Assembly: GCA_039621445.1 (NCBI GenBank)
Contig: CP154954.1
Span: forward strand, 7,575,425-7,617,756
From: Euglena gracilis
Lineage: Eukaryota
Direction: 5' to 3'
DNA: 42,332 bases
Shown here in pieces: positions 3,801 to 42,332 of this stretch. Position 1 is the stretch's first letter, and the number at the start of each line of letters is the position of its first letter. Both the position numbers and the translations under genes were made by a program. The notes under the pieces were generated by a model. That model did not search any database. It saw only the letters and a list, made by a program, of their open reading frames with translations, and was not told the origin of the DNA.

Positions 3801-6800
3801 GCCCCCTCTGCCTGACATCAACGGATCAATCGACGGTGGCGGGCCGGGGGGATGAACGCAACGCCTGACACCGGGGGAACCGGGCGGCCGGCCACCTGCG
3901 TCACCCCTGGTGCGGGTGGTGGGGGGCGGCACAGCCCGGCGGGCGGCCCCTTCGGCCGAAACGGTCTCGCTTGGGAGCCTGAGGTCGGAACCGTAACCGT
4001 CGTAGATGGCAGGTGTTCGATGCCCGAAGGGTAACCCCCTCCCCCCCCCCCCGCAACCCATTGCTTGAGTTGTTTTCAATGGAGCTGCCCAGGGGTTCCT
4101 TCAAGTTGGGTGTTGTTTAAACTTTGGATGTATTTTTTTTGCAATACGTCGTTGTGAGTGTGCACGGACGTCGGCTTCGTTGCTGTGATTGCGCCTTGAG
4201 ACTGCACGGTGTGTTTCAACCCCAGGGGGGTTGCTGAAATTTCGATTTCAGGTGGTGGCCGAGGAGGTTGCTTGAAGTTGGGTGTCGGTCGGTTGGGTCC
4301 AGGGATTGTTTTAAAAAACCGAGGGAGGAGGGCGTACCCCACTAACCCAGGGGGCACTCCCACCCCCCTAGGGAGTCCGGGAACCAACTTTTTGGGGGTA
4401 CCCCTCAGGGGAGGGGAAAGGGTCTGGCAGACCCACCCACCCCAGCCCCCCCTGTGGTGCCAAATTAAAAAATAAAACTCTGGCCAGGGCCTAAGAGTCG
4501 CTAAAAAGCGGAGGGGCACTCTTTAAGACTAAGGGAAGAGGACAGCAGTTGGTCACCAGGCTGGAAAGTAATTGAACCTTACCAATGCTCCCAAACACGT
4601 CGAGCAGACAGCCAGCACCCTCTCTGAAACGACGAAAGACGACATCCCGTTTGAGCCAAAAAAAAAGAATCAGCGCTTGGTGAGAAGTGGGGAACTGGAA
4701 AATAGCTTCTGGATGCTCTTACAAAAAAGCTTTCGGCATTTTTTGATATGGTACCTCAACTCTTTTTTGTCGTAGGGTTTTATCGTCGCAAAAACACTCG
4801 GCTGAGGGAAAACGAGAGAGATGCACAACGGGAGATCAATCCGACCATTTTCCAGAAGGGAGAAGAAAGTCCAGAATTACATCAAATGTGACTGTAAAAA
4901 ATCGGCAGGTATTTCCTGCTCTCCAGAAGGGGCCACGACTCGTGGAAGTGCTGATGGCAGTAACAGCGGCATCCAACTGCTTTGCAATTTGGAGGCTCAC
5001 CCCAAAATTCAGGCAAATCGATGATACAACACCACAAATGACCAATTCTTTTGCATTCAAAAAAGTCACAGGAAATGATGCAGCCCGGGAAAAAGAGAAA
5101 TGGAAAAAAATCCAAATGGATGGGGATGCTTCCAAAAAAAAAGGCTACTCAGAGAAGGGGTTAGCAGATGGATGGAAAGCACTGAAGCAGGCGGCCATCC
5201 CGCCCTTGGAAACTGCCCCGCTGGCACTCCGGGCACTCCGTCAAGTCCCATACTGCGAAGGGTCAAAAACAATGCCAGAAAATAATTTTTACCAGATTTT
5301 TTTAAATTTTCAATTTAAATATTCTTTTTTTAAAAAAATATACTTATAATAATACATAAAATAAAAATAAAATATATAATACATTCCAGGTCTGTTCTCA
5401 AATAATAAATTCACAGAAAGATCCGGTTACTTCACACCGTAATTATTTTGCACTGTGTCTCAAAAATATTTGCACAATATCCCAAAAATATTTGCCTCCG
5501 TTCCAAAAAATTTTGCACCTGGGTCGGTGGTTTGCACAGTTGCCCTTTGAAACTTCAATCGGCGTGGATCTTTTTACATTGTCCAGTGTAAAGCTGTTTT
5601 TTCATTGACCAAAAATAAATGACAGAGTGCAAATTTTTTCCGTACACGTGCAAATATTTTTTGAGGCTCATCACCAAAATTTTGGGGGCTCTTGGCAACA
5701 ATTTTGACAGGTTGGGGCAAATATTTTTGCTAAACACGGGCAAACATTTCAGACGCTGGTGTAATACAAATATTGACATTAAGACATCCAGAGTAATACA
5801 AATAAACCACATCGATTTTGCTGGCATGTGGTTCTCCTTATTGCACATTCAATGGGTTTTGAATTTGCAAACATGTATTGCTCAAAGCGCGGTTCAAGGC
5901 ACCCTTGATGAAAAGAAAAAAAACTGACACAGATGGAGACCCTCACAGAGGAGGGAGCAGACATCCGAACAGGACCAGATACTATTTGGCAAGCCCATAC
6001 GGAAACGTAAATGACAATGAACGAGCCCTTGTAGTTCGTTGAGGCACTTCACCCGTAACCCCGCCAGGTAACCACCGCAAACCTCACCAGTGAATCAGTG
6101 CTATGGAGCATCGGGCAGACCGAGACCGAAATTTCCAAGTGCCACAGCCTCTGATGACCGCTTGGATCGGACAACGCTGCACGGGGGGGGGGGGTCCCCA
6201 CAGCATACCCGGGACGTCCCTGAGATTCAGGCGCGGGTTCTCGTCCCGGTCGTGCCAGGTGGCCTTCCACCGGGGCAGGCCCTTCCACCGCAGCAGCACC
6301 CGGCAGCGGGGCAGCGACAACGCATCAGCGGAGGGCATTGATTGGCAAGGACGCACCCGGCAGGAGGGCGGACATGGCACAGAAAAAGAGCGCACAAAAT
6401 TGGCTCTGGGCGTGGGGGACTTGGAAGATTAGAATACATCATTTAAAGAACACAAAAGGCGCTAGAACTAAAATGCGCATGCGTGGGTGGGTGGGCCGGT
6501 GTTTGTGTGTGTGTGCATAAGAAAAACTTCCCCCAGAGAAGGCCGAATTTGGTGCAAACAACTTCCCTCTTTGGCCTTCAAAAAAATGGGGGGGAACAGG
6601 AAATAAATCAAATGAATAACGCTATAAATAAAAAAAATCTGTTTTCGACCTCCAAATTTCCGGTCTTGACAGAGCTCCAGAGGGACGACTAGGAGCTCTT
6701 TGCCCTCTGGGTGGTCCTGAAGGGGGGACTCCCAACATTTCAAAAAAAAACGGCAACTGCTCTGTCCTTCAAAAGTCACCCTGGGGTAATTCAGTCCCAA

Positions 6801-9800
6801 AGCAGTTGGGTTGGGGCATGGGGTCTTCCCACTGCATGACAACGCCGGCGGAGGGGCAGAACGGCCGTTGCCCCGGGCACCACTTCTTTTTGGCGTACGC
6901 CTGCGCCAGCACCTCGTCCACCACGAACGGGGTCTGCTCGTCCTCGCTGCCGCCATCGCTGGCGGCCTCCACCTGCGGCGCAGCCAGAGATTTGACCAAA
7001 TCCAATCCTGAAAAAGCAAAGTGATTCCGATTGCCCCACGGGTGGAGGTTTTGTTGGGCCCAGGGGGGGGGGGGTGCGGTCAGCACCCACCAACCCAACC
7101 TCTGTGGGGTGGGGCCAAGGGGACCAGCTGTTTGGGGAAATCAACATGGGGTGCCGGGGGTCCCAACATCCCCTCCCCTAAACAGAACCACTGCTGACTC
7201 AGCACCCTTCTCATGCTGTTCGGAGGGGGGATCAACCTAAAAGAGTAATACCTGCCCCTGGCCTGGCATTCATTCTCAGGGCAAGGGCAATAAAGGGAAA
7301 AAGTGTTACATGGCAAATATGGCACTCAAAACTTGTGAGTAAGAAACCCCTCTGAATCTCCGCAGACAGTGACCTTGCGGTGCCTGGAACAACATGTGCA
7401 CATCGCACGGCACGATTGAGTGCACCGGTGTGTGAGCCGACCCCACCACTGGAAGCGTCGCCAAAGCGGCCAGAAAGCTGCAGGCCAGAGAAGACCTTAT
7501 CCCGCATTTCCCATGGGCACAACCAGCTGACAAAACAAAAAATGAAAAGGCATCCCTGGTCGGCCCTGGTCGTCCCAGGTCAGCCCCGGTTGTCCCTGGT
7601 CAGAACCCCCACAAAGGGGGTTCTATGGGGGGGGGGGGGTCCTGAAAATCATGGTCGGCCCTGGTCGGCCATCGGTGCCTGGCCACGAGCTGGCCGCCAA
7701 AAGACAGCACTTAACACAGCGGATGATCGGCTACCCGTGCGGGAGACCTCGAGCCAGAGGGAATACACTCAGCACCGAACCGCGCGAGCTCGCGCCCGCA
7801 GAGGTACACACTGCATGCGCACTTGCCGCGATTGGGGCCTGGAAAAGAGACGCCATGGCCCGGGTTGAAAACCCAGGCAGAGAGGCGATGCTTCACGCAA
7901 GTGTCGTGCGCCGGTGGACGCATCAGGTACTCCCACCTCTTCGGCTTCTCGGCCCCTGTTTGAAACCCCTCCCAACAAACACGCTGCCGGACGGCAGCCG
8001 TTGTCTCCAAGCACATCACCGAGGGGTCTTTGATGACCGGATCGCGCGCATATGCGCACGATTGGATCTCTGAGGAAAAGATCACACATCTCAAAACGTG
8101 TGGATGGGGTCCAAACCCCGATGTTGAAAGTCAATGCAAAACGCTGGGGCCTGAGGCAAGTGGAGGGCGTTGGGTTTAGAAACTGATGGACAAGCCCTCA
8201 ATTTTGCTTGCCGAGTGATGGGCGAGGGTGTAAGGACCAACAGATGATGTGGGTTGCAGTGCTTTGTGGCGCCACAGTCAGCAGGTTTTTGGGGGGCCCG
8301 CAGCTCCCCCTCTGGCAATTCTCCAGGTTCAACCCTTCACACAGCCATGCTTGGGCAAGCCTGGGGGTCACCGCCAGCAGGAGTTTCAAACACGGCAAAA
8401 TGAAGCAGACGGACATGTCATAAGTTCGTGCGCAGGTGTGCGGAATTCTTAAATGCCACATGGGCCTCCTATCTTCTCATGCAGCTTGACATGGTTGAGA
8501 AGCGGGGGACACCCTTGGGTTTCCCCACCCGATTCCAACTCGGCACATCAAACACGGCGCGTACCTTTGCCTTCTTTTGCTTCTTTGCGGCGCGGGAAGG
8601 ATTGGAAGACGACGGTTCCGCGGCCAGGGCTGTGTTTCCGAGGCCACGGACCGCGCCGCCTGGCCTAGAATGCGCTTGGGTGAAAGGAAAAAAAAAACGT
8701 TTAAACCGACCAAGCTGGGCTGTGCACATTTCTGCAGGAAAAGACCGAAAAATTATCCCATCTCCTTGGGAGAAACTTCCATCATGCAACATTTGTTAGG
8801 ACATGTCGAACATTCATTCACATTTTTGCTCCAAAGATTATACAAGCACAAGCAAAATATTTTTTAAAAAATAAACAACAAAAAAATGAATAATGAAAAT
8901 TCCAATGAAAAAAATTAATGTGCCAGAAAAAATACATCGCGAAAGGGTTCAAACATCTTAAAATGGCTTACCCAACACAACAAAACAACCTGGCCGCATC
9001 ACCTCCCCAGCCAACGTGGAGCGCCATCGGAGACAGCTTGGAATAGCAGCTTGAAAGTCAATGGAGTTTGGAAGCAGGTGCCCCAGAAGGGAGAGGGAGT
9101 GGAGGGGGGTAGGGTGGACGGCGCACCGGACCTTATTGTCAGCGATTTTGGGCTCCAGATGCAGCCCTGGATGAAGCTCGGTGGCTTCTTTTGGACGGGA
9201 CGGGAGGTTTGGCTTCGTCCTGATGAGTGCAAAGAAGCTCGGGCAACCGGTTTGGAAAATTTGCAAAAAAACACACTGTTGCAAAATCTGAGAGAAAAAC
9301 TGGAAAATCCACCAAAATGTAAAAATTACCCAAAATTCCAAATTAAATTTAAGGAATCACATGGAAACATGAGGAAGATGACATTTTCAAAATGCAAAAA
9401 AAAATACAAAAACGGGCAGATGTGGGGGATTTACAAAAAAATGCAAAGAAATATGAAAAATTAAAGAAAACGTTGCTTAAAAGAATACATTGCTGGCAAA
9501 AATCAAACAAATACGCAAGAAAAGGATTTTTTTTAAAAAATTGACAAAATTGAAAGAAAAAAAACATTCTGCAAAAAACCACAAAATGGTAAAATGCGAA
9601 ACGCATTAACCCACCTGGTGATATCAAGCATATGGTTGTGGACAAGGTTTCTGCCTTTCCTCGTCTGACTTCTTGCCACTTTGAAACTGGAAAAAAATGC
9701 CACATACGAGAAAAAAAAATGCGTGAGAATGAACTCCGTCCATCACTCACATAAACTTTAGCTTTAGCTGGGATTTCGGTTCCCTAGAATTGAGAACATG

Positions 9801-12800
9801 CATCATCAAGCAGGAAACCAGGGCAGCACCATGAGCACCTTTACAAATGGCAGCAAAAACTCGCACCCCATTTAATTTTTTTTCGGACAATTGGTCTGGT
9901 CCAGGGTTTCGGCAGAACCCCCCCCTGAAAACGGCGGCTGAATAAAATTTGCCCGCCTCCTCTGGAGGCCGTTCAAAGAAGCCCCCCACCCCACCCCGCC
10001 CGCCCACCCCTTCTTATACAGGTGCAAAGGAGGTATAAGCTGATACTGAAGGTGCCCAATGCAAAAATTTGTAGGCGAAAAATCTGGATGCAGCAGAGGG
10101 GAACGTGGGAGACACCTCCTGAGTCAGCGGTGGGGAGCTTTGGCGAGAGCTGCAAGAGACGGGCGGCACAGGGCTGGCCGGAGGGCCAGGTGGGGGGTTC
10201 AGGGGGGAACGCCCACCCGAAACGCCCTCCTTTGTACTTAATGTGACACAGCCCAAGGCAGACCAGACAGTGGGGCACTGTTCCCATCCTAAACCCCCCC
10301 AAGAAATAAGACCCGGGTTCTATCTTATTTTTGGGGGGGTCTTATTTTTGGATTTTTTCTTGACCGACCCGGGCCCGAAAAAAAACATCATTTTCAGGTT
10401 CCTAAAAACACTAAATTTTCCTTCGGCGCTTCGCACTATGTGTAAATTTGTGTAAGTTGACATTTAGCATCACTTCAAGAATCTGAACATTTTTGAAATT
10501 TCATCATTCTTGTGTGTGAAATTTGGGTTTTTGGCAATTTCTCAGGGAAAATTTTCACCGTCCCCAGCGCTTCGCGCCATCAGGGGAGCCTTATTTTTTG
10601 GGGGGGTCTTATTTTTGGATTTTTGCTCAATCGGCCCAGGGGGGTTTTATTTTGGGGGGGTCTTATTTTGGGGGGGTTAACCCCAACATCCTCCAAATGC
10701 AAACCCTGCGGCAAGGGAATCGAGAGAAATGTACAAAACATCGAATAAACCACTACTGGGCAGGTGGTTGTTGCGCTGCTTGCCCTGGGCACGTCGGTCC
10801 TTGAAGGACAAGAAAAGGCCCTCCTTTGGGCCAAATGGAAGGCCAAAGGCTTCTGTGGGCTCGAACAGGGTCGAAAACTAAAATGAAGAAAATTTTTGAT
10901 GATTGGGGGCTGACCATGCAATGGGAAGAAATCAGACACTACTGCTTGGGGGCGGAGGGGGGGTTCAGGGCAGGGTTCGATATAAACGCTGCTGGCAGGA
11001 TGAACGGATGCACCCCCTGGTCCATTTTCAAAACATAGTCGGACAAGAGACCATTCGAGCTTTTTTCAGGCAAAATTGACAAAAATGCCCAAAATTTTCG
11101 GCGGAAACCAGGGCAAGGAATATTTGACCTATCATTGCGCTGCTCAGCGACGCTCCCACTCCCCCCCCCCACTTCAAGGACGAGCGTGTGCTTATTTTGG
11201 TGGCCACCAGACAAAAGATGAGGGTCCGCTGTTGTAAATCCCCCAGGCGTGCCAAAATCCATTTCTTGTTGCACAGAAGGGACACACCAACGTCACCATG
11301 CCACGTGAAGGACAGTGTTGTCCGTTCGTCTTCCACCGCCCTTGTGTCCAACAAAATTTAGACAATTGTGATTGCATGTTCGTCGGTTTTGAGGATGGCT
11401 CAGAATGAGAGGTGGGGCACGTGGGGCACAATGCGGTCGGCTGCCTCCAAAAAAAATGCGGCCCCGCGTGCCCAGGCATTGCCCCTCGACCCACCCCCCA
11501 ACCATGCCAACCATGGAAAGGGGGGCAGCACTGACACCTGCTGCTGGCGTGGCTCACTTCGGGTCTGGGCCGGGGCAGGACAGCGATGCGGCGCGGAGGG
11601 GCGTGCTGGTTGGCCGGCGGCGGCGGCTCTGCTGGCGGCGCACTGTCCCCCCCCCCCCACACCTGCTGAAGGGAAAAGCTTCCCTCCAAAAAAAAAACCT
11701 CCTGCGGACGTCGGAAAAGAGTTTAGCAAAAAAAAAAAAACGAAAAGAAATGCAGTCTCTCGGATTCTTTGGGATTCCTGGGGCCGAAGGTCATGGAACG
11801 CCTTGCTGTAGACCAGGCTGAAATTGACCAACGCCGGGGGGAGGGTTTCGGGGCAAACCTGTGATGAAGCACAACCCAGACGTTTGGGCACTACCCAGGA
11901 AACGGCCAACCCCATCAACCCATGGAGCACAACCCAGGCCAACACAAAGCTAATGCTGGCCCAGCTTTTGTGTGCACAAGTGGCCGGGGTGCCAGCAAAG
12001 CGCCGCGCGGGGCGTAGCCCGGGACCTGGGGGTACGCAGGGTCCTGGTGGCACGGCAATTCCCCTTCTTCGGGGTGGCCCAAACCCCTTTGGTGAGCCCC
12101 CAACCTCGTCCCTCCCAATCAGGCATATTTTTAAGGATGACTTTAAACCCCTTTAAAAATCGAAAACCCTTCTGAGCAAAATGTCACAAAATACCTCAAA
12201 ACACCTTTAACAAACCACACAAAAGCATCCTGGGAGAAATTTTCTTCAATCGGGCAAAAACGAAAACCTCGGCAAAAAAACAACCGAAAACAAAAAACTC
12301 ATTTCTGGCATCCTTAAAACATCGCCTGGCACCCAAACTCAGATGACTTTCCGGCCTTTTTTATTTTCAACCTCGCTCGATGGCCTTGGGGAGGGATTAT
12401 TTTTAAGGCGATTTTAAAATTAAGGGTCTTGAAGTTGAAGGAGAAAAAAGGTTAAGGCTTTTGAAAGGAAGGCGTTTCGAAGGTTTTCTTAAAAAAAATT
12501 TTGAGGTCTTTGAAAAAAGGCCCAAAGACGATCCGCCCAGAGCGGGTTGGAATTGGCAACCATCCTTGTTGTCTGCAGACTCTTGGAAAGGGATGGTCAG
12601 AAACACCAACGATGCAAGTGAACGTCTGGAAGAGAGTCAAATAAACTCTGCAGCCTGCAGTGTTCTGGTTGTCTTGTCAGAGGTTTTTCAGGGTTTAACC
12701 CATGGGGGTGGTCACCCATCCCCCCCCACCCGTGGGACCATGACGCTCCACCCAAAAGCAGGAAAGCCTGCCTCCGGGCGGGGGAGGCACCCCTGGGGGA

Positions 12801-15800
12801 CCCCTTGCAATCAAACCTTAAAAAGAAACCACTCCGTCACTCCCCCCCCCGTCGGTTGCCATTCAGCAGGCAGTGCCGTGGGCGGGAAATGCCCACGATC
12901 TGGCGGGCCTCGTGGTGGCCGGTGAGGCCCCACTGCGGGTACCACACCTGTGACGGGAGAGAGGGAGGGAGCGGTAAGAGCCAAACTGGGAGAAATGGCC
13001 CCAGTGAACGCCATGAGTCCACCTTCTTCACAACAACAACTTCCAAAACTTCAGAATCCCGTGCCTGTGCTCCCAACAATCCGCCACAACCCCATCAAAT
13101 GGCATATCCAGGGGGTAACACTGAGCATCCGCACTAAAAAAAAAAACACCCTTAAATCCCAGCTGCACACGTTTGCATTGGAAGTTTGGGAACAAACACA
13201 CACTCGTGTCAAACGTCTTCATTCCCCCTCGATATGTGTGGGGGGGGGCATTCAACCTCATCCCAGAATCCCACGCTGTGTGTGCACTACCAAGGCCCTG
13301 TCCAACACAGCAGTGCCTCCAGCAGTGTGCCACAGCGCTGCATGCAAATCAGCGACCAGTCATGCGGGAGGCATCCCCGACATTTTTGTGTCTTCCTATG
13401 AGTCAATCCAAATCCTGTCCAGGCATAGGGGCAAGAGGTCCAAACTGGGGTGCACAGTCTTTGTTCTCATCTTTGGGCACCTGTGCACCTGTGCTCCTGT
13501 CAGCGCTGGCTGGGGAGGCAGTATGAATGATATAATATGTCCCCTCACCATTGAGACGGAGAGCAAGGAAGGTGGAAAAGATTCATTTTTTGAAGCTTAT
13601 TTCATCTGTCTTAAATTTTTTGTACGATTCAGTTTTGCCAAACTGGCCTGCTTTTTTTGTGGGGGAGAACAAGATCCCAAAATTATTTAAAAAAATGTGC
13701 ATTTGGGTGGTAATTTTTTTGTTTGAATAAACATGGTTATCCCACCTGGTTCTGAGACAAGTGTCAACTACGAAGGGGTTACCATGGCAGGGGGAAACAT
13801 GAAGCCGAGTCTTGACGCAGCTGACAACTGACAGGACTGCGGGAATGGTGGGGTAGGGAGCCTAACAGCTTGGACAGCCCAAATTGACAGCTGACCACAG
13901 ACGGACACCCAGGGAGAGGGTGCAGGGAGGCACCTTGTACACCGCCTTCTTGGGCCCCTGCTTGGTCTGCAGCGCCACAATGTCCCCCACCACGGGGCCA
14001 GCCGGGCCGGCAACCTCCACGTGGTCGCCAACCTGGTAGGGCACCTCCCGGGGGCACCGCCCAGCGCTGGTGCCAAACTTACTAATACTATTAATAATAT
14101 TATTTTTTATAAATCATAATGATAACACATAAAATAAAATAAAATAAAATAAAATAAAACAAAAAAATAAATATGTAAAACAAAACAAACCAAACCAAAA
14201 TAAGTTACCCTTGGATAAATGCATCATTTCCACAACGACAAACTGCCAATCCCTGGTACTGACAGGTCGACCAGCACCGCAGACGGTGATACTTTCTCAC
14301 AAACTGGCAGGAACTGGCTTCTGGGCGGGAGCCTGCCAAGATCTCAGGGATGCTAGTTTCCCAGGCAGGGCCCTGGTTTGATTTGATGACAGGGCCTTGA
14401 TTTCTGGGCAGGGCAATTACGGGTGGATCACATGGACGCCAGCTCTGACAGGTCCATCAGTGCAAGGTACCTCCCCCCCCAAGCCTGCTGAACACTAAAA
14501 TGGCCTAGATGGTCCGGACGGGGGACGTTCAATGGGGACGGGTTGCACTCTAGATGCTCCGGACCGGACACCCCTGTTCATTGGGCAAGGGGGTTCATTA
14601 GACGTTGGGGGGGGGGTGCCTGGACAAGCTTCCAATACCGAGACCTTGACAGTTTCTTGGGAGGCAACATGGAGTTCCCAGATGACAATTCCCTGGGAGG
14701 GGCAACGGTTTGATATGTTTTTACACCACCCACCTCCATTTTCTCCCCTGGAGAGGAATGGACGGGTGCATTCTGTTATGGGTCCTGGGCCCGGGCCAAC
14801 ACCCGTCAAAGTGCCGTTATGGGCCCTCGATGCCCCAGTGCTGGTGTGCCAACCTACCCAGCCTCCCCCCCCCCCCCCGGGACCGAAAGTGTCACCCCCA
14901 CCTCAAACCAACAGCCCACTTGGGGGGAGCAAAACCTGGAAGCCTGCCACTTCGGACGCAAGGTGAGGGTGAATTGGTGCTGAACAGCAGCAGAGGAGGT
15001 CAACTCTTCACTCCGTTGACAGAACATGTGTCTGCTGCTGTGGAGGTGGTTTGCACTCCGCAGGGATGCAGACGGGGCAGAACCGATGGCAGGGGCAGCA
15101 TTCCAGGTTGGGGGGGGGGGGGATGATGAGCAGCTTTCATGTCCTGCCAGAACAAAGCCACATCACGAAATCACTGTAGAAATGAGCCAAAATTGGTCGA
15201 AAAATGGCCGTGACTCGGGCTACACGAAGAGTTGGTGGAAAAGTAAACCATGGTTGGATAGGGCATTCCGAGGCCTTCATTTTGCTCTCTGGACATCCCG
15301 TTTCCTCCACACACAACAAGAAGTCGGGCTTGCTTTCCACTATGATGAGTGGCTTGTTGTCATATCTTTGGGGAAAATGCATTAACGCAAGCAGGCATTT
15401 TTTGTTGTTGTTTTTTGGGACCATTTTTTGTTCAAAAAATCGATTTCCCCAAAATATCGTGACAATGAAGAAAAATCAAAGCAAAATTTACCAGCCCATT
15501 GAACAAATTTAAAAACCCGTGCCCTGTGTGCCAGAACCTCAGCTCCCCAATAACACCTTTTCTGGTGCTTGGGTGGGGTGAAGCCAACCCTGCTCACTCA
15601 TCACCGAGAGCCTCTGCTCGTCTCGCAGCTGAGGAGACGGGAGAAGCCGTGGGCACAATAAACCATACACAAGGAAGGGGTCGGCGAATCTCTCCCTCTC
15701 CCCCCTCTTCCCTTCACATTGCCCCATTATGTATACAAATATTCTCGGCATCTTCAGTCGCAAAGCACCAAATACATTCAAAATAATCAAATTTGGAAAA

Positions 15801-18461
15801 TATGCTCGCCATTCCACAAAGGATTAGACTTTATTATATGTCAACTAAAAAGAAAAAATTGGCTGACACAAACAGAAAATAATTAAAATAATTAAATGTA
15901 TTTTAAGAGAAATACAGCAATGCAACAAAGCGAGGAGGACTTTAAGCATTGCTGTGACGCACAAACTCAACACAAAAATGCAGCATTTATTGGCTGTCCG
16001 TGTGAAAAACATCTCCCCTCCCCAATCTGTCCCACACACTGTCACGCGCCCAATGTTCAGAACAGAGGCACACAACGCTGACACCCTTCCTGTGCGCTCC
16101 AGCGGAACCGACGACCCCATCAAGTCCAAGGCACGCCAATGATCCAAGAATGTGTGTGGACAGACAAGGGGGACAGTGGGACCCAACGACTGGGGGGGGG
16201 GGACGATGGGGAACTGCAGGGGCTGGGAGTGATGGCCAGCGTTCAACAAACACTTCGCTTTAAAAAAAAGGAAAATGACGAAAAAATTGGACGTCTTTCC
16301 GGGGGGGGAGGCAGGCCGAAAATATGGGAAAATTGATTCCCAGCGTCCACCGTGCCACAATTGAACGTGGTCTCGGTGGAACCCAGAACACACGGGGCTT
16401 CTCAAAAAAACGGAGGTCTGTTCAATACAGAGCATCTAAAAGTCCATGCTTGGTTGCATAATCGCACGTTCAGCCGAAAAAGGAAAAAAAGTCTAGCCCA
16501 ACAATGTCCCCAAATAACCCCACCTTTGGGGATGGAGTTTGTCCAGTGAATATTATTTGGGGGATGTTTTTTTTTTGCTCTTTTGCATGTTTGATGGGAT
16601 AACACATTCTGCTGGCTTGGAGAAAAATGCGGGGAGCCTGCAAAAATTGCTGGCGGCCCACCCACCTATGCCCCCAAACTACACATTCATCAGTGCCTAA
16701 AATGTGTGTGTCCCCCCCATGCTCTGAATAGCAGGGGGAGATGCAGGTCAAAAAGAACTGTGATTTAAGCGACATTTCATCACTTGGTATCTGGGATGGA
16801 TGGCAGCATAAATACTCGACCCACACTTCGCGGCCGTGATTGTGATGCCCCCAAGCCAAGGGTGGGTTACCAGCCCAGAAGGCTTTCCTTGGTTTGTGAG
16901 GGGGGGTTGGGCCAGAGGGGATCCAGTGAAGGCCCCCAAGAGGGATTGTGTACACTTTTGGGACAACCCGGTTTGATGCTCAGCCCGGACCATGGGGTTT
17001 TCTTAAGGACAGCCCGGGGAGGAAGGGGTCCCGCAGGCCAGCTGGAAAACAGGTGCTGGCTGGACCCCCCCCCCCCCTGGAGGGTGGGGTCCCCTCCGGC
17101 TTAAGGAAATCTTATAGCAGCGAGGCCATACCGGCCTTTCCGCCGAAGTACCCCTGCAGGCAGCCCGCACAGAACCGCTTGCCGCACTTCAGGCGGTCCG
17201 CACATCGGAGCAGCTGGGCAGGAGCCGGTCCCTCGACTGGAACGATACAACATTAACAAACTGGAACCAATATGCCGGAGTTTATGGAAAGAGACTTTGA
17301 ATTTTTTTTACAAATTACACTGTCCCAGGGCTGCAGGGGTTGTTTGGTCCGGTTTTTTTTTGGTGGGGGGGGACGTCGAGATTCAGTGAGAACGCAAGCA
17401 CTTGCCAAATTTATGGGTTTTTTTTGCAGACCTCTCATTGGTTGAATAATGCAAACCTATATTTTCACTTCACCCCAAATCCTTGGCACATTTCGTCCGA
17501 GTTTCCTGCCGTCTTCGACCTGTTTTGGTGCTGCCTTGGCTCAAACGGGCATCCTTCAAAGAAAAGCAATGATTCCGTTGCAGGGTGCTATTGGCTCCAG
17601 TGCACTGGGATCCCTGTCTCGAGACCCACATGGCTCGGACTCTGACTTCAGGGTAAGGGGTTGGGCTGGAATTCAGAATCTGACGTCCCCCTGAGTATCA
17701 ACCACGGGAAAATATTTCCTCCTGGGAGACACTGAATGGCTGCGTCTCCAAGGGGTTCTGGTGTCAGAGAGGCCGGGTCGGGAGCAGCGGCGGCGGCGCC
17801 ACAGAAGACACACCGCTCCTTTTCTTGCGTCTGGCAGAGGGCACCAGCCGTGAACGGAATCTGACACAGAGCACACCAAACGATCCGGACTCTTCTGGTG
17901 GGTGGTTCTCAGACCAGCTCTCGTGTGCAAAACAGAACTAAAAAAAATGAGAATACAAAAAACAGACAAAAGGAGGTGTTTGTGTGTCTGTGCGAGTGCA
18001 CATATAGTATGTGCACTGTGTCTGCCTTTCTGATGGTAAAATGTGTGCCACCACAGTTATGCCAAATCATGCCAGTGCCCCGCTTCGCATGACCCTCGGA
18101 GCACAGCGCAAAGCGACCGAACCAGGGGTCGTAGGCGAGCAAAGGGTGGAAGAGGCCCCCATTGCGCGCCTCATGGTTCATGGGAGTGCGTTTTTTTTAG
18201 TCTATGACTGATATACATACATAGATACATACATACATAGATACATACATACATACACACATGCATGCATCCATACATCCATACATCCATACATCCATCC
18301 ATACATACATACATACATACATACATACATACATACATACATACATACATACATACATACATACATACATACATACATACATACATACATACATACATAC
18401 ATACATACATACATACATACATACATACATACATACATACATACATACATACATACATACA

Positions 18462-18493
<32 letters not shown>

Positions 18494-18504
18494 CATACAT
18501 ACAT

Positions 18505-18537
<33 letters not shown>

Positions 18538-21500
18538 TACATACATACATACATACATACATACATACATACATACATACATACATACATACATACATAC
18601 ATACATACATACATACATACATACATACATACATACATACATACATACATACATACATACATGCATGCATACATACATACATCCATCCATCCATCCATCC
18701 ATCCATCCATCCATCCATCCATCCATCCATCCATCCATACATACATACATACATACATACATACATACATACATACATACATACATACATACATACATAC
18801 ATACATACATACATACATACATACATACATACATACATACATACATACATACATACATACATACATACATACATACATTACACACACATACATACATACA
18901 TACATACATACATACATACATACATACATACATACATACATACATACATACATACATACATACATACATACATACATACATACATACATACATACATACA
19001 TACATACATACATACATACATACATACATACATACATACATACATACATACATACATACATACATACATACATACATACATACATACATACATACATACA
19101 TACATACATACATACATACATACATACATACATACATACATTACCATAAGCAATATTTACCCAACCTTCAACCTTTTACCATTAATCATTATTACTTGGT
19201 TGTTGATATTGTTTCCTGAATCGTTGTTGTGCCATTCCTTCGAGTATATTTCCCTTCGATTAAAATTTCATTTTTTCTGTTATTCAGACCAGAAACCAAA
19301 AAGACTTTGAGGTCTTCTGTCAGTTTGACCCCTGCCACCAAAGAGCATTCGTCCTTTTTTTTTAAACAGAAAACAATTAAAAATAAAAACTACAACAGCA
19401 ACTTGTATTTGAACCGATGCTGGATGACGTTGCCTCAAAAAGAAATGGGAGTGGAAGCTTGGAGACTGCCAAATCATCAAGCCATTGGACAGCCATGCTT
19501 CATCTGCAAATATGTGGCACAGAAATGAATAACCCATGGTAGCAACGACGAGCAGCAACCAGAAGCAGGGGTCTCAGTGGCGGTTGGTTGTGGCGTTGCC
19601 GCAGCCGTGCACACAGCGCTCGAAGGGGAGCGGGATGCTGCACGCAGGGCCTTCGGCAAACCGGGAACGGAATCAACAACCACAGCAACACCCCCACACA
19701 CACAGCCAGGCTCAAACCAGCAGTCAAAGCCCATATGTGCCGGTCGGACACCGAGGGGGATTCTACGACAAAGAGACTGAAGAAGACTGGTCGTTTAGTT
19801 AAAGCAACGAATTGCCGCTTTGTTCTCACCGAAAAGACGTCAGGGGTGCAGGGATGGGTCATGGCGCTTCCCACCCCAAAACCGAACCTTCTCCCCTGTG
19901 CTTTCTCCCATTGACTGTAAAATGACAGTGATTTCTCCGTTGGCGGGGGGTGCGCACTTTAGGGAGGTAGTTTCGGACCCTTGGTGGGTGCGCACTTATT
20001 AGGGCACTGCGCACTTATTAGGGGGGGGGGGAGGTTAGTGGGGGAAAAAACCCGCGTCGGGGACCGCTGTCCAGGCATTATTATTTTTTAAGGCGCCTTA
20101 AAAATCCTTAAAAAAACCTTAAAAACCCTTAAATTTTTTTTGCCAAAATGCCTTAAAACCCCTTAAAAAACCTTAAAAACCTTAAAAAATCACCCCGGGG
20201 AAGTTTTTCTTCCCTGTGATGATAGCATTTCTGAAACCCTGCATAAAGCCAGTCAATGCAGCTGCGATTGAAAACAAACAATATGAAAACCGGATTGTTT
20301 GCCAAGGTTTCTTGGATAAGTCGGTTGGCCTCGCTTCACCAAAGGCTGTGACACACGGCCAGAAAAAGCAAAACTTGCAACCACATCTTTCTTGATTTGA
20401 ATTACTTGAGACATTCTCAGACGAGTCAACCCAAATTGCTCAAAAGTGCAATTGTAGCAAAAGTTGCATGAACAACAAAAAAATCCCAATTTGGGGCAAT
20501 TTACTACGCTGGAGCAGTTTCCCACACTTGCCACAGCATTTCAAGAAGCGAAACAGCACGTTCTCCAATTGAGCGCTGACTGCGCGAATTTTTCCAACTT
20601 TTTTTTGCCCAAGCACGCGAAAGTTTTGATCCCCGCACTTATGTGCAGCAGTTAGAAGAAATTTCTCATTTGGAGCAGAAATCTTGCCATTGTGGAGAAA
20701 TTCCTGCTGAATTTGCAAGCTTTCACACCCAAAATCTCGAATATCGCAAGTAGGATTGAGAGTTTGCAACAACAGTGGCAAAATGACACAGTGGATATCC
20801 GAACCGCAATCGCGGATTTGCAGACCCGCAATGCGGCAACCCGTGCACCCACACCAGATAGCCTCATGAACACCGAGGAAAAAATCAAATTTTTTTCATG
20901 TGAGCAATACCAAATGTGTGCCCACGCAGTGTGTCGCCATGCACATTGCTCAACACCTTGTTGCATGGGATGCAGAGTGGGTCACGAAACTCAAAACTCG
21001 AAACCATCCTTTTTTTTCATTGCAATTACTTCAAATTTCTGACCCTATTCAGGACATTTGCTTGCCTTTTGACAATGACTGTCCCTCATGGACCGCCCTG
21101 ATCCCCGTGCTTCGCCCTAGGCTTCTTCCTTGGGCGTTCCGAAGCCACAGAGGAGTCTGAAGCCATCGGGCCATCTTTGCCTTAAAAAACCTTAAAATTT
21201 TTTAAAAATCCTCAAAAAACCTTAAAAACCCTTAAAAAAAACGGCTTAAAAAATTGAGAGATTTCGCCTTTAAAAAAATAATGCCTGCCGCTCTTGCCCC
21301 AGCGGGGTAAGTGGAGTGGTACTTCCGAAGCCCTGGGGGTGGCGGATGAGGGCCGGAAGGACAGGGCTCGGGCATCGGGTGCAGTGCCACCCACTGTACT
21401 CTGTGACACGCATGGGTGGATGGCGCGGCGATACCAACGTTGCACATATTAAATGAGATGTGCGTTTGGTAGCCCTAAACCACCCGTCCCCCGGGGGTCC

Positions 21501-24085: not shown

Positions 24086-24091
24086 CGGATT

Positions 24092-24120
24092 CTTGGAGGA
24101 GCGTCAGAGGGTGGGGGCAG
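24092..24120 (-). promoter_or_regulatory. Candidate spliced-leader trans-splice acceptor of the chromatin-reader gene
   Basis: C-rich tract ending CCAAG, 6 nt before ATG 24085. SL trans-splicing is established in euglenozoans. It could instead be a cis acceptor in the 5' UTR. Confidence 0.4.
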
Positions 24121-24987
24121 TTGGGGTTCGCTGTCTAAGCCATTTTCCCTGACGGCGGGGGTCGAGGGGACCCATTTTTAGGGGTCAATTTTGGGGTCCA
24201 AAAAATTCGTCCAGAAATGGAGCAAAACCCCCCTTTGGGTGGGAGGGGCACCCAGTTGGCCGACCTCCCCCACCCCCTGGGGCGGGTGGGAGGGAGGGAA
24301 GGGCTGGGCCCGGACCCACCAGCCCTCATGATTCTGCATTTGAACCAAATTCCGCAGCAGGAAGTCATTGGGCGGAATTACACAGAACCCGTCGCACGCT
24401 GAACTCAAAGCAGCACGGATGCCACGTCCCGAGCTGGAAAAACTGTTTTTGAGCCGAAATGGGAGTTTTTTGACCCCCGGCCTCCCGTTTTCGGCCATGC
24501 CATGCCAAAATGTCCAAAAAATATTTTTGGACATTTTCTGGGTCAAAAATGTCCGAAAAAAAATTGAAAAAAGCCCAAACCCATGTTTTTAGACCCCCCC
24601 GACTGAAATGCCTAATGGCGAGTTTCGACTTCCTTCTGAACTTCTGGGTTAGAATGGCTGTCTACCGTGTGCGTCTTCGCTGAGTTCCTTTCTGGTGGTT
24701 AATGCAGAAAAGACCAAATGCGCTCAGAAAGTCAGTGTCCCAGGGTAAGGGCGAAGCAATGCACATGGTCTGAACATTTTGATTTCTTTGGCCATTTTCT
24801 CCCGGGTCCTGGGTCCTGAGGGGCCGGGAGGAGAGATTCATCGACACAAATATCAATATTGAACCATCTTGCTATGAATACGAATCGCATCAACCTTCGA
24901 AAAGAACAACGGGAAAATCATCCTTCATTTCACAGGGTCGCCATGGGAATTCCGAGTTGATGAAAGGTATTGGGAGTTGGGCGAAAC

Positions 24988-25010
24988 TGTCTCCAATACG
25001 CTCTGCCCAG
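24988..25010 (+). promoter_or_regulatory. Candidate spliced-leader trans-splice acceptor of the plus-strand gene
   Basis: TGTCTCCAATACGCTCTGCCCAG, 2 nt before ATG 25013. Confidence 0.35.
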
Positions 25011-25012
25011 CG

Positions 25013-27241
25013 ATGGTCGGCGCAGCGGCGGATGCGGTGAGTCTCTCGGGTGGGCGTCACACCCCACGCCACGGCAGGCTGGCGGCCCTGCAGTGGACGG
25101 GGGAAAAAAAACGATGGGCTATCCCAGACTTCTTGTTCTTGGAGTGGAGTGCCGGTGGGCCATTGCGTTCAACGGGACGCTCTTTCTCATGTGTGTTGAG
25201 TGGGGCCTTGTGATCACGGGTGTTTCTTTAACGGTTGGGTATTGGGGGCACGGATGCAGTTGATACCACGTCTCCAGTCGCCCAACCCACTTGGGGATTG
25301 TCTGTGGGTTTGTGGCTGTGGGGGTTTTCGACCTGCGGCCTTCCTCGGTGGAGAGTGGGTTCCGGGGCCATCCACCCAGCCTGCAGCATACGACCGCCAA
25401 AATTCCCGTAATGTGGACCTTGGATTGCTTGAGTCCGAGCGCAAAAGACCGAAATGGGGAAAGAGGGGAAACGGTAGGAAACTGAAAAAGTGCACTCGGT
25501 CGCTCACACTGCTTTTCCACAGGACACAAAAAAGAAGTCCGAAACCGCAGTGGAAAAAAACTTCCACGTTGGGGACCTGTAGCTTCGGCCAGATGGTGGG
25601 AAATGCCACTTTTGGGAACGGCCAAAATTAAAACGTATCACGCAACACCACACAATATCGCACAATATCTTTTGAGCAGGTGTTCAGAGAAGGGGAGGAT
25701 TCTGGTGATTTGGCCCCTCCCAGAGGGGGGTGGGTGGAGACTCCCTGGACAAAATAAGGTCTGGGAGACTCTAAAAAAAAGTTTAAAAAGAGGGTTCCAT
25801 AAAACTGGTTCTGACACAATTGGGGGCAGGAAACCGTGGGCAATCCATTTTTGGGCCCGGGAAATATTTACAGAAAAATTTAGTTAGTTTAATTTAGAGA
25901 AATTTACATTGGGGCACCTGCGCAAACAGATCAGGGAAAATAGGCTCAGAAAAGCACAACCGCCGCTCATCCGGCATCACCCAAAGAGCTTGCACTGATA
26001 TCCAAACAATGCTTGAAAAGCAGAAACGTTTCTTAAAATGTACTTGCCTCTGGAAAAACAAAACCTCCCCAAATAATACCCCCCCAAATAACAACCCCCC
26101 AAGGACCTACTCAGCTGCCCAAATAATAAGCCCCCACCGAAACCTGTGAAGTTGAAGGGGGGGGAAAAAATAAGCAGAAATGTTGCAAAAATAACACACA
26201 AATGGAAGGAACTGGTGAACAAAATATGCCAAAAAAGCACCCATTTTTCAATAAAACCCAAAATGCCCAAAAAGGGTCAATTCTTGACTTCAAACCTTTT
26301 GCTCGAATAATTGCCCCTCCCCCTGGACCCTGACTTCGGACCCTGACTTCGTGTGCTCAAAAACCAGGAGTTTATTATTGGGGGGGGGGTTCACACAATT
26401 TGGAGTTTCAATGGCAGAAGATAGTGGTTGGGATCGAAACAATTGGAACACAATCCAGAATTAATAACCGAGGAATTTGAATGAACCACCATGAGATAAA
26501 AAAAAAACCAGTTCCAAATTGACAGCAATTTGGTGAACATCATTCGAGAAAAAGGGAGAAAGAGAAATTCTGCAAATAGCATTTCTCCCCTTACCCTTGC
26601 GACATTTCCTTTCTGTCCACGCTTCTCCCCTAATGCAACGTTTCTTTCTGCCTGCGGGGAAGACATCTTCATTCTGGCTGACAGAATTACCATCGGCTGC
26701 TAAACATGACATATCACTGGAAGTGGAGAAACACATATCTTCAAAGATGCTTTCTCATTGAACAATATTTGGTAATCAGGTGGCCAGATTGTTACCATTT
26801 CCCAGAATAAATGTGTGCCCACCCCCCATCAACCAGCGATGATGGTGACTTTATTCAACCCAGAATTGCTGAGGCATAGCGAAGCGTTCTTCTTGCCTCT
26901 GAGGCACCAAAAAATTTTGGGGCACAAAAATTTCAGACTTTTTGTGAGCCCCTCCAAAAATAGAAAAAAAACCACCTATGACCAGAGATGACACAGCGTA
27001 CGGAACCAACAAGCACTGCACGTGAGACTCTTTGCACTGTGATGTTGACGGAGGGGACATAAGCTTGCCCAAAGGAGCAGCCTTGCTGCACCAAAACACA
27101 TGCAGGGGAATGAGGTTCAAGACCACGGAGCAGAATTGGGACCAGGCCCTCAAGGAGATGCCACCGCTGTTCAACGTTGCGTTCCTATCAAGCGCAGGAT
27201 TTGTGCAGTTCGGTGCGCGTGTGTCGCCGGGGTTTGGTTGA
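25013..27241 (+). CDS. Spliced gene of unknown function; candidate exons 25013-25036 (MVGAAADA), 26864-26903 and 27106-27241, middle exons unresolved
   Basis: ATG after a pyrimidine-rich tract ending in CAG, with a GTGAGT donor at 25037. The last two exons join in phase to give LLRHSEAFFLPLRGMRFKTTEQNWDQALKEMPPLFNVAFLSSAGFVQFGARVSPGFG*, with GC3-rich codons. Confidence 0.5.
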
Positions 27242-27268
27242 CTTGTTGGGCCGCCGGCCGGCCCGGCC

Positions 27269-41459
<14,191 letters not shown>

Positions 41460-42332
41460 CTGCGCGGGTACAGGGGGAGACAGGCACAGTTTGATGGAAA
41501 GCCCCTCCAGCTGATAATCAAGGGACAGAACAACTCACACCTAAATCCACCCTCCGTGTGGGAAGGCCATGCAAGAACCGAATTTACTTGAGATCGAAGC
41601 TGTTCGAAGTCAGTTTTGGAAAGCCAAATTCTTCCTCCCGTGACAGAAAAATGTGCCTCTGGAAAACATCCATCGCACCAAAGAGGGATAGAGAGAGAGA
41701 GGGAGAGAGAGAGAATATTTTGTTTTCTGTCATAAACTTGCTTTTGCGAGCTCGTCACGGTGAAAAAACCAAAAGTAGATGGCATCTAAAAACCCAGAAG
41801 AAAAATTTTGTTCCCAAAGCGTTTCTTAGCGATTAGCGATTCCCGGGGGGGGGTACCCTGTTCGACCCCCCCCCCTGACCCGAGGTCGAACAGGGTGCCC
41901 CCCCGGGGTACCCAAAAATCAAATGCAAAAATGCCAAAAAACGTCCAATTATGCAAAGAAAAACAATCTTTGAACCAAAATTTTACCTGGCCGACCCAGT
42001 TCTTCCCATTTTTTTGCCCATTTTTGCACCACCAAAAAGCGAAAAAAAACGCGTTAACCCCCCTCCAAATAACGGGGCGGGGTGCCCCGTTACTGGCACC
42101 ATCTTTTTGATCTTCCCCCCGCCCCGTTATTCGGGCACTGCCCACTCAAAGGGCACTGCCCCGTTATTTGGGGGGGGTTACTGTCCGGCCGCCCTTCGGG
42201 CAGCCGGAAAATAACCAAAAATTGCCGATGGGGAGTCCGGGGCAGTGCCATGCTGGCACCTCACTGCAAAAAAAAAATATTCCCACTGATGCACCAACTC
42301 ACCACATTCCACTGCGGCCGGCAGGGGGTGGT

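What the first reader, a model, noticed from the sequence alone, without database searches (positions are those of the whole stretch)
4295..41317. Age series of TSD decay across about 9 nonconventional introns that all obey the 3+5 rule
Seen: the same 3+5 cut restores frame and motifs at 41317-41017 (flank 8-mers 6/8), 38826-38547 (8/8), 37803-37581 (5/8), 36009-34906 (6/8), 21290-20067 (6/8), 6878-6302 (3/8), 5177-4965 (4/8), 4934-4613 and, tentatively, 4485-4295 (4/8). The terminal triplets vary (CAG/CTG, CAT/GTG, CAT/ATG, CGG/CCG, CCC/GGG) while pairing is kept. Inference: structure and spacing rather than sequence define the splice sites, the TSD decays while the stem is conserved, and the class as a whole descends from repeated transposon insertions.
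Basis: partly seen in the sequence, partly recalled or inferred. Interest (0 to 1): 0.85.

Follow-up and report, generated by a model that had tools for sequence, protein, structure and literature searches.

The report
Euglenid nonconventional introns, some still transposons
These are the already-described helix-measured "nonconventional" introns of euglenid algae, and a few of them still look like freshly inserted miniature transposons, which supports a published idea about their origin rather than revealing a new kind of element.

Summary
The geometry is real. All nine spans have 3 nt, a terminal helix, then 5 nt, and the flank 8-mer identities are as reported: 6, 8, 5, 6, 6, 3, 4, 2, 4.

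RNA reads could be laid only on 2210-18200. They confirm 2 of the 4 claimed introns there (6878-6302, 5177-4965). They refute 4934-4613 and 4485-4295: one 1002-nt intron, 4939-3938, is used instead. The five spans at 20067-41317 were not tested by reads.

In an unselected set of 12 read-defined non-GT-AG introns, 11 have an mRNA-compatible register with the helix at +4/-6. So the rule holds here. It is also the published Euglena code, N3-CDG...CH'G-N5-6|R (PMC12501133).

Flank identity splits into two groups:
- The GCN1-like gene's four introns and the 1.2-kb element average 6.2 of 8 (P<1e-5).
- The 11 read-verified introns average 3.0, against a null of 2.55 (P=0.17).

A graded age series is not shown (rho 0.32, P=0.23).

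The span 38826-38547 is an intact 272-bp MITE with a 16-bp TIR and a perfect 8-bp TSD. A sibling with its own perfect 8-bp TSD lies in non-coding DNA at 28271-27821.

MITE origin and 8-nt repeats at a young intron are already in print. This is a known kind, with useful new examples.

The parts
41017..41317 (-). Predicted nonconventional (NC) intron in the HEAT-repeat (GCN1-like) gene: N3 AGC, CAG/CTG, N5 CCCCC, purine at exon+1. Flank 8-mers CCCGCAGC / CCCCCAAC (6 of 8).
   Evidence: geometry, signature; frame kept only at this net length. Not tested by reads.
38547..38826 (-). Predicted NC intron that is an intact MITE. The element is 38552-38823 (272 bp) with a 16-bp perfect TIR (CAGGCTTCTTTTTAAG). 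TSD copies CTTTGGAC lie at 38824-38831 and 38544-38551 (8 of 8). It sits inside coding sequence of a HEAT repeat.
   Evidence: one of 2 pairs with 8/8 flanks among 189 TIR pairs; sibling alignment; frame; fits the published signature. Not tested by reads.
37581..37803 (-). Predicted NC intron: CCC CAG...CTG GCGCT|A. Flanks match in 5 of 8.
   Evidence: Not tested by reads.
34906..36009 (-). Predicted NC intron of 1104 nt: GTC CAT...GTG AAGGT|G, with an 8-bp helix including one G:U pair. Flanks match in 6 of 8. The interior holds several G/C-rich palindromic repeats.
   Evidence: Not tested by reads. Lacks the strict CDG triplet.
20067..21290 (-). TIR element of 1216 bp (20072-21287) with an 11-bp perfect TIR (CAGGCATTATT), subterminal TTTTTAAGG-type repeats, and flanks matching in 6 of 8. 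No evidence that it is an intron.
   Evidence: no Pfam hit in its ORFs; pyrimidine at exon+1. Flanks are non-coding or repeat-like. Not tested by reads.
6302..6878 (-). Confirmed NC intron splitting what I read by eye as a chromodomain-like exon (no tool hit): GCC CGG...CCG CTGCC|G. Flanks match in 3 of 8.
   Evidence: joint 6300>6878 (577 nt, slides by 1; X21 3 reads, X15 and X16 contigs). (7-bp helix in the 3+5 register).
4965..5177 (-). Confirmed NC intron: TTC CAT...ATG CCGCT|G. Flanks match in 4 of 8.
   Evidence: X16 record 7 piece arithmetic; same side lengths in X15..
3938..4939 (-).
   Evidence: joint 3936>4939 (X15 depth 67.5, X16 depth 60.2, X21 1 read)..
4613..4934 (-).
   Evidence: no such joint among those listed; the supposed exon 4612-4486 has near-zero depth; a low-depth contig runs unspliced across 4459-4888.
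4295..4485 (-). It lies inside the 4939-3938 intron and may be a decayed inverted-repeat element there.
2485..3014 (-). Read-defined NC intron, 3+5 register allowed, helix run 8.
3075..3901 (-). Read-defined non-GT-AG intron that breaks the rule: helix AGGTGGCC/GGCCACCT with offsets summing to 11, and a pyrimidine at exon+1.
8620..18084 (-). Eight further read-defined NC introns of the same long gene, all with an allowed 3+5 register: 9172-8620, 12008-11616, 12883-12046, 15051-14050 (cannot slide), 15595-15085, 17779-17220, 18084-17833, plus the incompletely resolved 9221>11538 joint. The span also holds three GT-AG introns.
27813..28279 (-). Sibling MITE in non-coding DNA. The element is 27821-28271 (451 bp) with TIR CATACATCTCT and a perfect 8-bp TSD, CTTGGGAC. 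It shares the TIR pattern and a GC-rich core with the 38823 element.

Best explanation
The window is euglenid nuclear DNA; this is inferred from the intron code, not named by any tool. The spans are members of the known class of nonconventional (NC) introns.

How the intron is removed:
- The two ends of the intron pair in the pre-mRNA.
- An as yet unidentified machinery cuts 3 nt upstream of the helix on the 5' side and 5 nt downstream of it on the 3' side.
- The exons are joined. According to the literature, the intron is released as a circle.

Why insertion is tolerated:
- Some of these introns are recent insertions of non-autonomous TIR transposons (MITEs) that make an 8-bp target-site duplication.
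- Because 3 + 5 = 8, the RNA-level cut removes the element plus exactly one TSD copy and restores the pre-insertion message.
- Such an element can therefore land in a coding exon of an essential gene without harm.
- Afterwards the helix is held by selection for splicing, while the intronic halves of the TSD drift.

Shown here:
- The helix geometry.
- Two junctions and ten further NC introns defined by RNA.
- The 8-bp TSD and the sibling copy.

Inferred:
- That the four GCN1-gene spans are spliced.
- That the old introns once had TSDs.
- The endonuclease-ligase mechanism.
For: Geometry in 9 of 9 spans.

RNA evidence:
- Joints confirm 6878-6302 and 5177-4965.
- 11 of 12 read-defined non-GT-AG introns have an mRNA-compatible register with the helix exactly at +4/-6 (runs 4-11), while 4 of 4 GT-AG introns give runs of 0-2.
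- The outermost helix corresponds to a total offset of 8 in 11 of 12.
- By my arithmetic's register counts, the chance that the '3' split is allowed in all 11 is about 7e-7, if the cut were anywhere within the 8 nt.
- Purine at exon+1 in 11 of 11.

Transposon evidence:
- Among 189 outermost perfect TIR pairs of at least 10 bp in the window, exactly 2 have 8/8 identical flanking 8-mers.
- Those two elements align, sharing the TIR pattern and a core (also a 33-nt match at 97%).
- The four GCN1-gene spans keep frame only at helix-to-helix + 8.
- Their flank identity plus that of the 1.2-kb element is 31 of 40, P<1e-5.
- Three of the four fit the published signature exactly.

Literature:
- Spacers of 3 and 5 nt and the CAG/CTG pair were tested by knock-in mutants; the signature is N3CDG-/-CH'GN5-6|R (PMC12501133: abstract, sections 5, 7, 8).
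- MITE hypothesis (PMC3935182, passages).
- Eight-nucleotide direct repeats at a recently gained gapC intron (PMC4770533, passages).
- A review figure legend naming TIR and TSD (PMC11282704, passages).
Against: No RNA was laid on the five spans with high flank identity, so their splicing is inferred.
- 2 of the 4 spans that were tested are wrong.
- One of 12 read-defined NC introns (3901-3075) does not obey 3+5.
- In the read-verified set, flank identity (mean 3.0) is not above the mismatched-pair null (2.55, P=0.17). Its matches cluster at positions 4-6 next to the cut (6, 5 and 7 of 11). The known junction preferences could produce that without any TSD.
- No significant TSD-versus-helix correlation.
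- Family size could not be measured because no genome is held, and no transposase was found in the window.
- The two sibling TSDs are alike in 7 of 8, which is unexplained.
- Naming the gene GCN1 rests on a recalled motif and weak Atlas leads only.
Confidence: 0.8

Rival explanations
1. The high-identity spans are plain transposon insertions that are not spliced. On this view the MITE-bearing GCN1-like copy is a disrupted allele or paralogue, and the 1.2-kb element is simply intergenic.
For: The flanks of 21290-20067 show no coding signal and exon+1 is a pyrimidine. The perfect TSD and TIR of the 38823 element mean a very recent, possibly polymorphic, insertion. One search shows that diverged alleles or paralogues exist in this organism (27 divergent letters at 6210-6236).
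Against: Three of the four GCN1-gene spans fit the experimentally defined signature exactly. All four keep the frame only at helix + 8. In the neighbouring gene the same geometry predicts real junctions in 11 of 12. Knock-ins of natural and synthetic introns with this signature are spliced in E. gracilis (PMC12501133, abstract and sections 7-8).
Confidence: 0.12
2. The direct repeats are footprints of double-strand-break repair, or microhomology at intron gain, rather than transposase-made target-site duplications.
For: This was proposed for the 8-nt repeats of the recently gained gapC intron (PMC4770533, passages). In the read-verified set the matches sit next to the cut, as microhomology would.
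Against: The 38823 element has 16-bp perfect TIRs abutting the repeats. A related element elsewhere, in non-coding DNA, has its own perfect repeat of the same 8-bp length flush with its TIRs. That is the anatomy of transposition.
Confidence: 0.08
3. The 'decayed TSDs' of the older introns are chance plus junction consensus. On this view those introns never had TSDs and arose another way, for example by conversion from conventional introns.
For: Mean 3.0 against a null of 2.55, P=0.17, with matches concentrated at positions 4-6. Conversion between intron types has been proposed (PMC3935182 and PMC4770533, passages).
Against: 11 of 12 introns can slide by at least 1 nt. I expect roughly 44% by chance (my estimate). 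17779-17220 still shows 6 of 8. The long helices of 11 bp at 4939-3938 and 18084-17833 look like TIR remains.
Confidence: 0.35

Closest known systems
Nonconventional introns of euglenids (Milanowski et al. 2014, 2016; Nomura et al. 2025 splicing code N3-CDG...CH'G-N5-6|R)
   Same: Non-GT-AG borders. Terminal helix at +4..+6 / -8..-6. Spacers of 3 and 5 nt. Purine at exon+1. Frequent direct repeats that make the junction slidable. Co-existence with GT-AG introns in the same gene.
   Different: Nothing in kind. Locally, only 4 of 11 read-verified introns carry the strict CDG/CH'G triplets, against 61.2% reported for E. agilis, and one intron has offsets summing to 11.
MITE-origin hypothesis for NC introns, and the recently gained E. 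agilis gapC intron with 8-nt direct repeats (PMC3935182, PMC4770533, review PMC11282704)
   Same: Inverted repeats at the ends and 8-nt direct repeats at a young intron.
   Different: Here the intron has a sibling element outside coding sequence with its own perfect 8-bp TSD. This points to transposition rather than break repair. In the passages I read, I did not see such a family link shown for euglenids.
Introner elements and MITE-derived introns of Micromonas, dinoflagellates and Fritillaria (as summarised in PMC11282704, passages)
   Same: DNA transposons with TIR and TSD that become introns on insertion.
   Different: As summarised in the passages of that review, the Fritillaria introns are removed by the spliceosome and the 3' splice site arises from flanking exon sequence. 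That this holds for Micromonas and dinoflagellate introners is my recollection. Here the cut sites are measured from an RNA helix, and the sum of the two spacers equals the TSD length.
Endonuclease-plus-ligase splicing that yields circular introns (tRNA-type bulge-helix-bulge, IRE1/RtcB-type); RNase III proposed for diplonemid NC introns (PMC12621601, passage)
   Same: It works like them in principle: cuts at fixed distances from a helix, and a circular intron product reported in the literature.
   Different: No enzyme is known and nothing about chemistry could be tested here. The resemblance is inference and partly recalled.
DNA transposon superfamilies with 8-bp TSDs, such as hAT or P (recalled, not from any call)
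   Same: 8-bp TSD, short TIRs beginning CA..., small non-autonomous copies.
   Different: No transposase was found in the window, and the TIR ends do not obviously match the hAT terminal consensus I recall. The superfamily is unassigned.

Membership tests
Euglenid nonconventional introns | Borders other than GT/GC-AG | tested here: met
   none of the nine spans, and none of the 12 read-defined NC introns, has GT/GC..AG in the 3+5 register.
Euglenid nonconventional introns | Terminal helix starting at +4 and ending at -6 (spacers of 3 and 5 nt) | tested here: met
   9 of 9 spans; 11 of 12 read-defined introns have an allowed register with runs of 4-11, against runs of 0-2 in 4 GT-AG introns.
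Euglenid nonconventional introns | Absent from mature mRNA at exactly these borders | tested here: inconclusive
   2 of the 4 tested claimed spans are confirmed and 2 refuted.
Euglenid nonconventional introns | Published signature CDG/CH'G with a purine at exon+1 | tested here: inconclusive
   strict triplets in 5 of the 7 non-refuted claimed spans and in 4 of 11 read-verified introns. Purine at exon+1 in 6 of 7 and in 11 of 11.
Euglenid nonconventional introns | Spliceosome-independent removal and a circular intron RNA | not testable with these tools
   Known only from the literature cited.
MITE / TIR DNA transposon with 8-bp TSD | Terminal inverted repeats | tested here: met
   16 bp perfect (38823 element), 11 bp (28271 element), 11 bp (21287 element).
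MITE / TIR DNA transposon with 8-bp TSD | Direct duplication of fixed length flush with the TIRs | tested here: met
   2 of 189 TIR pairs have 8/8 flanks; I expect about 0.04 by chance, from P(8/8)=0.000235. The others have 5-6 of 8.
MITE / TIR DNA transposon with 8-bp TSD | Multiple related copies in the genome | tested here: inconclusive
   One sibling and several fragments in the window. No genome is held. The spans at 41317 and 37803 have no detectable sibling in the window.
MITE / TIR DNA transposon with 8-bp TSD | Mobility: empty sites or an autonomous partner with the same TIRs | not tested
No transposase domain was found in 10 ORFs.

The most novel reading that the evidence does not exclude
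The nonconventional splicing system may be geometrically matched to one transposon type. Its 3-nt and 5-nt spacers add up to that transposon's 8-bp target-site duplication, so RNA excision is an exact molecular 'undo' of insertion. This would let an active MITE family colonise coding exons freely, here a GCN1-like HEAT repeat. It predicts that every young NC intron genome-wide carries an 8-bp TSD and belongs to a TIR family. It would also mean that the unknown excision machinery co-evolved with, or derives from, that transposon lineage.
Probability: 0.4. Interest if true: 0.6.

Novelty: new member of a known kind. Interest (0 to 1): 0.38.

Why it matters
Papers up to late 2025 still describe the origin of euglenid nonconventional introns as unclear or merely plausible.

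A coding-exon intron that is an intact MITE, with a perfect 8-bp TSD and a sibling copy in non-coding DNA, is the kind of direct link that hypothesis lacks. The equality 3 + 5 = 8 gives a simple reason why such insertions are harmless.

The window also shows that read-verified introns keep pairing, spacing and the exon+1 purine while often lacking the strict published triplets. That bears on how general the published code is.

None of this changes the picture of the class. It supplies test cases.

Tried and rejected
RNA holders:
- The look-up of sequencing runs on 34000-41600: no RNA holder listed. X15-X20 are only guessed to be RNA.

Protein routes to transcript-derived sequences or orthologues for the GCN1-like gene all failed:
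- The search for homologous proteins with exon 34242-34090, lengths 'longer': none.
- The search of protein representatives with exon 41459-41319: one weak hit, E 7e-4, not used.
- PDB sequence search with exon 34904-34797: none at E<=10.
- Pfam on 10 single exons: none at E<=1.
- The search for related loci in metagenome contigs: none.
- Exact DNA pattern in metagenome contigs: none.
- The ESM Atlas gave only weak leads (0.90) that include HEAT_GCN1 clusters.

Other attempts:
- No genome is held, so copy number is unknown.
- Pfam on 10 long ORFs, two of them inside the 1.2-kb element: no transposase.
- A relaxed TIR scan (595 pairs) added no further clean TSD. The extra high scores lie in microsatellites, and offset controls also gave isolated 8/8 hits.
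- The search of earlier findings returned nothing.
- The 32 letters that transcripts carry between 9221 and 11538 could not be placed in the window.
- My attempt to define the two remaining introns of the GCN1-like gene (E2/E3, E3/E4) by helix and frame gave candidates only.

Supplementary tables of the Milanowski papers and of the 2025 PNAS paper were not seen. They may hold repeat-length distributions that bear on the 8-bp claim.
Full report
WHAT THE SEQUENCE SHOWS

All nine spans lie on the minus strand. I read the regions and recomputed the geometry. In each span, 3 nt are followed by a stretch that pairs with a stretch ending 5 nt before the 3' end. The 8-mers made of 5 exonic + 3 intronic nt on the left, and 5 intronic + 3 exonic nt on the right, match in 6, 8, 5, 6, 6, 3, 4, 2 and 4 positions. 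The order is 41317, 38826, 37803, 36009, 21290, 6878, 5177, 4934, 4485.

RNA TEST

A search for runs found DNA holders, contig sets guessed to be RNA, and raw RNA runs of the same species label. TRF showed six arrays that cut the window into pieces. With one lay allowed, I chose 2210-18200, which holds four of the nine spans.

The lay shows one long minus-strand gene with GT-AG introns (read as CT..AC on the plus strand) and many non-GT-AG introns.
- The joint 6300>6878 skips 577 nt and can slide by one.
- One contig's pieces add up (22+62+35+26=145, next piece at 146 = 5178) to a joint 4964>5178.
- The transcript then goes from 4939 straight to 3936. So 4934-4613 and 4485-4295 are not introns, and the exon supposed between them is essentially uncovered.
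- Fifteen joints were listed and 12 more were not shown.

AN UNSELECTED TEST OF THE RULE

I took the 12 read-defined non-GT-AG joints and listed every register that gives the same mRNA. I then asked whether a helix starts at +4/-6 in any of them.
- It does in 11 of 12, with paired runs of 4 to 11, G:U pairs counted.
- The exception is 3901-3075, whose helix sits at offsets summing to 11.
- Four GT-AG introns give runs of 0-2.
- Scanning all total offsets shows that 8 is the outermost helix in 11 of 12.
- If the cut could lie anywhere within the 8 nt, the chance that the '3' split is among the allowed registers in all 11 is about 7e-7. This is my arithmetic from the register counts.
- All 11 have a purine at exon+1, but only 4 carry the strict CDG/CH'G triplets.

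Four of them lie in a HEAT-repeat gene that ends at a stop codon near 27270. I think it is GCN1. That rests on a recalled motif and on weak Atlas leads, since every sequence search failed.

For these four, removing helix-to-helix plus 8 nt keeps a helical, HEAT-like reading. Removing one or two nt more gives Arg/Pro-rich text or stops. The helix positions fix the length, so this is a fair check, at roughly 1 in 81 by chance. Three of the four fit the published signature exactly. 36009-34906 has CAT/GTG instead.

The fifth, 21290-20067, is a 1216-bp TIR element whose flanks show no coding signal and which is followed by a pyrimidine. I found nothing to support 'restores frame and motifs' there.

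ARE THE FLANKS DUPLICATIONS?

I used two nulls:
- random 8-mer pairs from the window: mean 2.02, P(8/8) 0.000235;
- mismatched pairings of the 5' and 3' flanks of the 16 introns, which keep junction composition: mean 2.55.

The five untested spans sum to 31 of 40 (P<1e-5 on both nulls). The three imperfect GCN1-gene spans alone reach P about 1e-4.

The 11 read-verified introns sum to 33 of 88. That is P=0.17 against the mismatched null and about 0.01 against random 8-mers. Their matches pile up at positions 4, 5 and 6, next to the cut (6, 5 and 7 of 11). This is what junction preferences, or the known 'slidable' junctions, would give.

Identity does not correlate significantly with helix length (rho 0.32, P=0.23, n=16). 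There is therefore a clear high group and a group at background, not a demonstrated series. One observation does fit ageing: only the 8/8 element has detectable relatives in the window.

TRANSPOSON ANATOMY

Among 189 outermost perfect inverted-repeat pairs of at least 10 bp, 60-2500 bp apart, exactly two have 8/8 identical flanking 8-mers:
- the 272-bp element inside the GCN1-like exon (16-bp TIR);
- a 451-bp element at 28271-27821 in non-coding DNA (11-bp TIR).

The two align, sharing a TIR pattern and a GC-rich core. This is a MITE family that makes 8-bp TSDs, and it argues for transposition rather than break repair.

The two TSDs resemble each other in 7 of 8 positions, which I cannot explain beyond a target preference. 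A looser scan added nothing clean. No transposase domain was found, and no genome is held to count copies.

WHAT IS ALREADY KNOWN

- The 2025 PNAS paper defines 5'-N3CDG-/-CH'GN5-6|R by knock-in mutants. It shows that the 5' spacer must be 3 nt and the 3' spacer 5 (6 tolerated). It reports 71.8% NC introns and 84.4% slidable junctions in E. agilis (abstract, sections 5, 7, 8).
- The MITE hypothesis dates from 2014 (passages).
- A recently gained gapC intron with eight-nucleotide direct repeats was described in 2016, with break repair offered as the cause (passages).
- A 2024 review's figure legend names TIR and TSD for euglenid introns (passages).
- Three literature searches listed no paper that ties a euglenid NC intron to a multi-copy family with TSDs, or that states 3+5 equals the TSD length. 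I read only listings and passages, and supplements were closed.

MECHANISM

The shown steps are the helix, the fixed spacers, and exact removal in two claimed and ten further introns. The inferred steps are these:
- The machinery measures from the helix and cuts in the single-stranded flanks.
- Exons are ligated and the intron circularises (literature).
- A MITE insertion is erased from the message because the spacers sum to the TSD length.
- Selection then keeps the helix and the exon+1 purine, while the intronic TSD halves drift.

VERDICT

The class and its rule are known. The window adds good examples and a family link that would be worth following genome-wide.

Noticed in passing
window 9221-11538 (minus-strand gene): Transcripts carry 32 letters between these two exon ends that occur nowhere in the window: no match with up to 3 mismatches, and no shared 11-mer. 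This could be a missing micro-exon, an allele difference or an assembly gap.
   Followed up: partly
window 6210-6236: One RNA contig (X16, depth 60) joins 5253 to about 6237 through 27 letters that are only roughly three-quarters like the window. A second contig set matches the window. There seem to be two diverged alleles or paralogues of this exon.
   Followed up: no
window 38544-38551 / 38824-38831 and 27813-27820 / 28272-28279: The TSDs of the two sibling MITEs are alike in 7 of 8 positions (CTTTGGAC and CTTGGGAC on the minus strand). This suggests a strong target preference or something not yet understood.
   Followed up: no
window 40208-40897: Candidate further NC intron of the GCN1-like gene, with a 10-bp helix in the 3+5 register, a frame-keeping length and 0 of 8 flank identity. 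It is unverified. The next intron (about 40102-39643) is ambiguous.
   Followed up: partly
window 1029-2203, 18213-19141, 32383-32607, 37067-37482, 38231-38440, 38976-39418: Long microsatellite or minisatellite arrays (20/50-mer, ATAC, CACACG, CA, CACG, CCACA). By my reading of the gene models, most of those inside the two genes sit in GT-AG introns; 18213-19141 lies in the intron 18150-19580, whose type I did not determine.
   Followed up: no
window 18150-19580: The next upstream exon of the long gene starts at 19581. It was located from a loose end of the reads (exact 30-nt match). So this intron is 1431 nt and contains the ATAC array.
   Followed up: yes
window 6284, 6916, 12917 and others: Single-base differences shown by most or all laid reads or contigs at these places (most clearly T>C at 6284). 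These are probably strain or allele differences between the window's source and the RNA runs.
   Followed up: no
window 33487-33857, 41850-41912, 42090-42210, 35408-35454, 35858-35907, 36300-36353: Many short G/C-rich palindromic repeats of the type GGTGGG...TCGA...CCCACC or CCCCAAATAA fill introns and spacers. They look like further small inverted-repeat elements.
   Followed up: no
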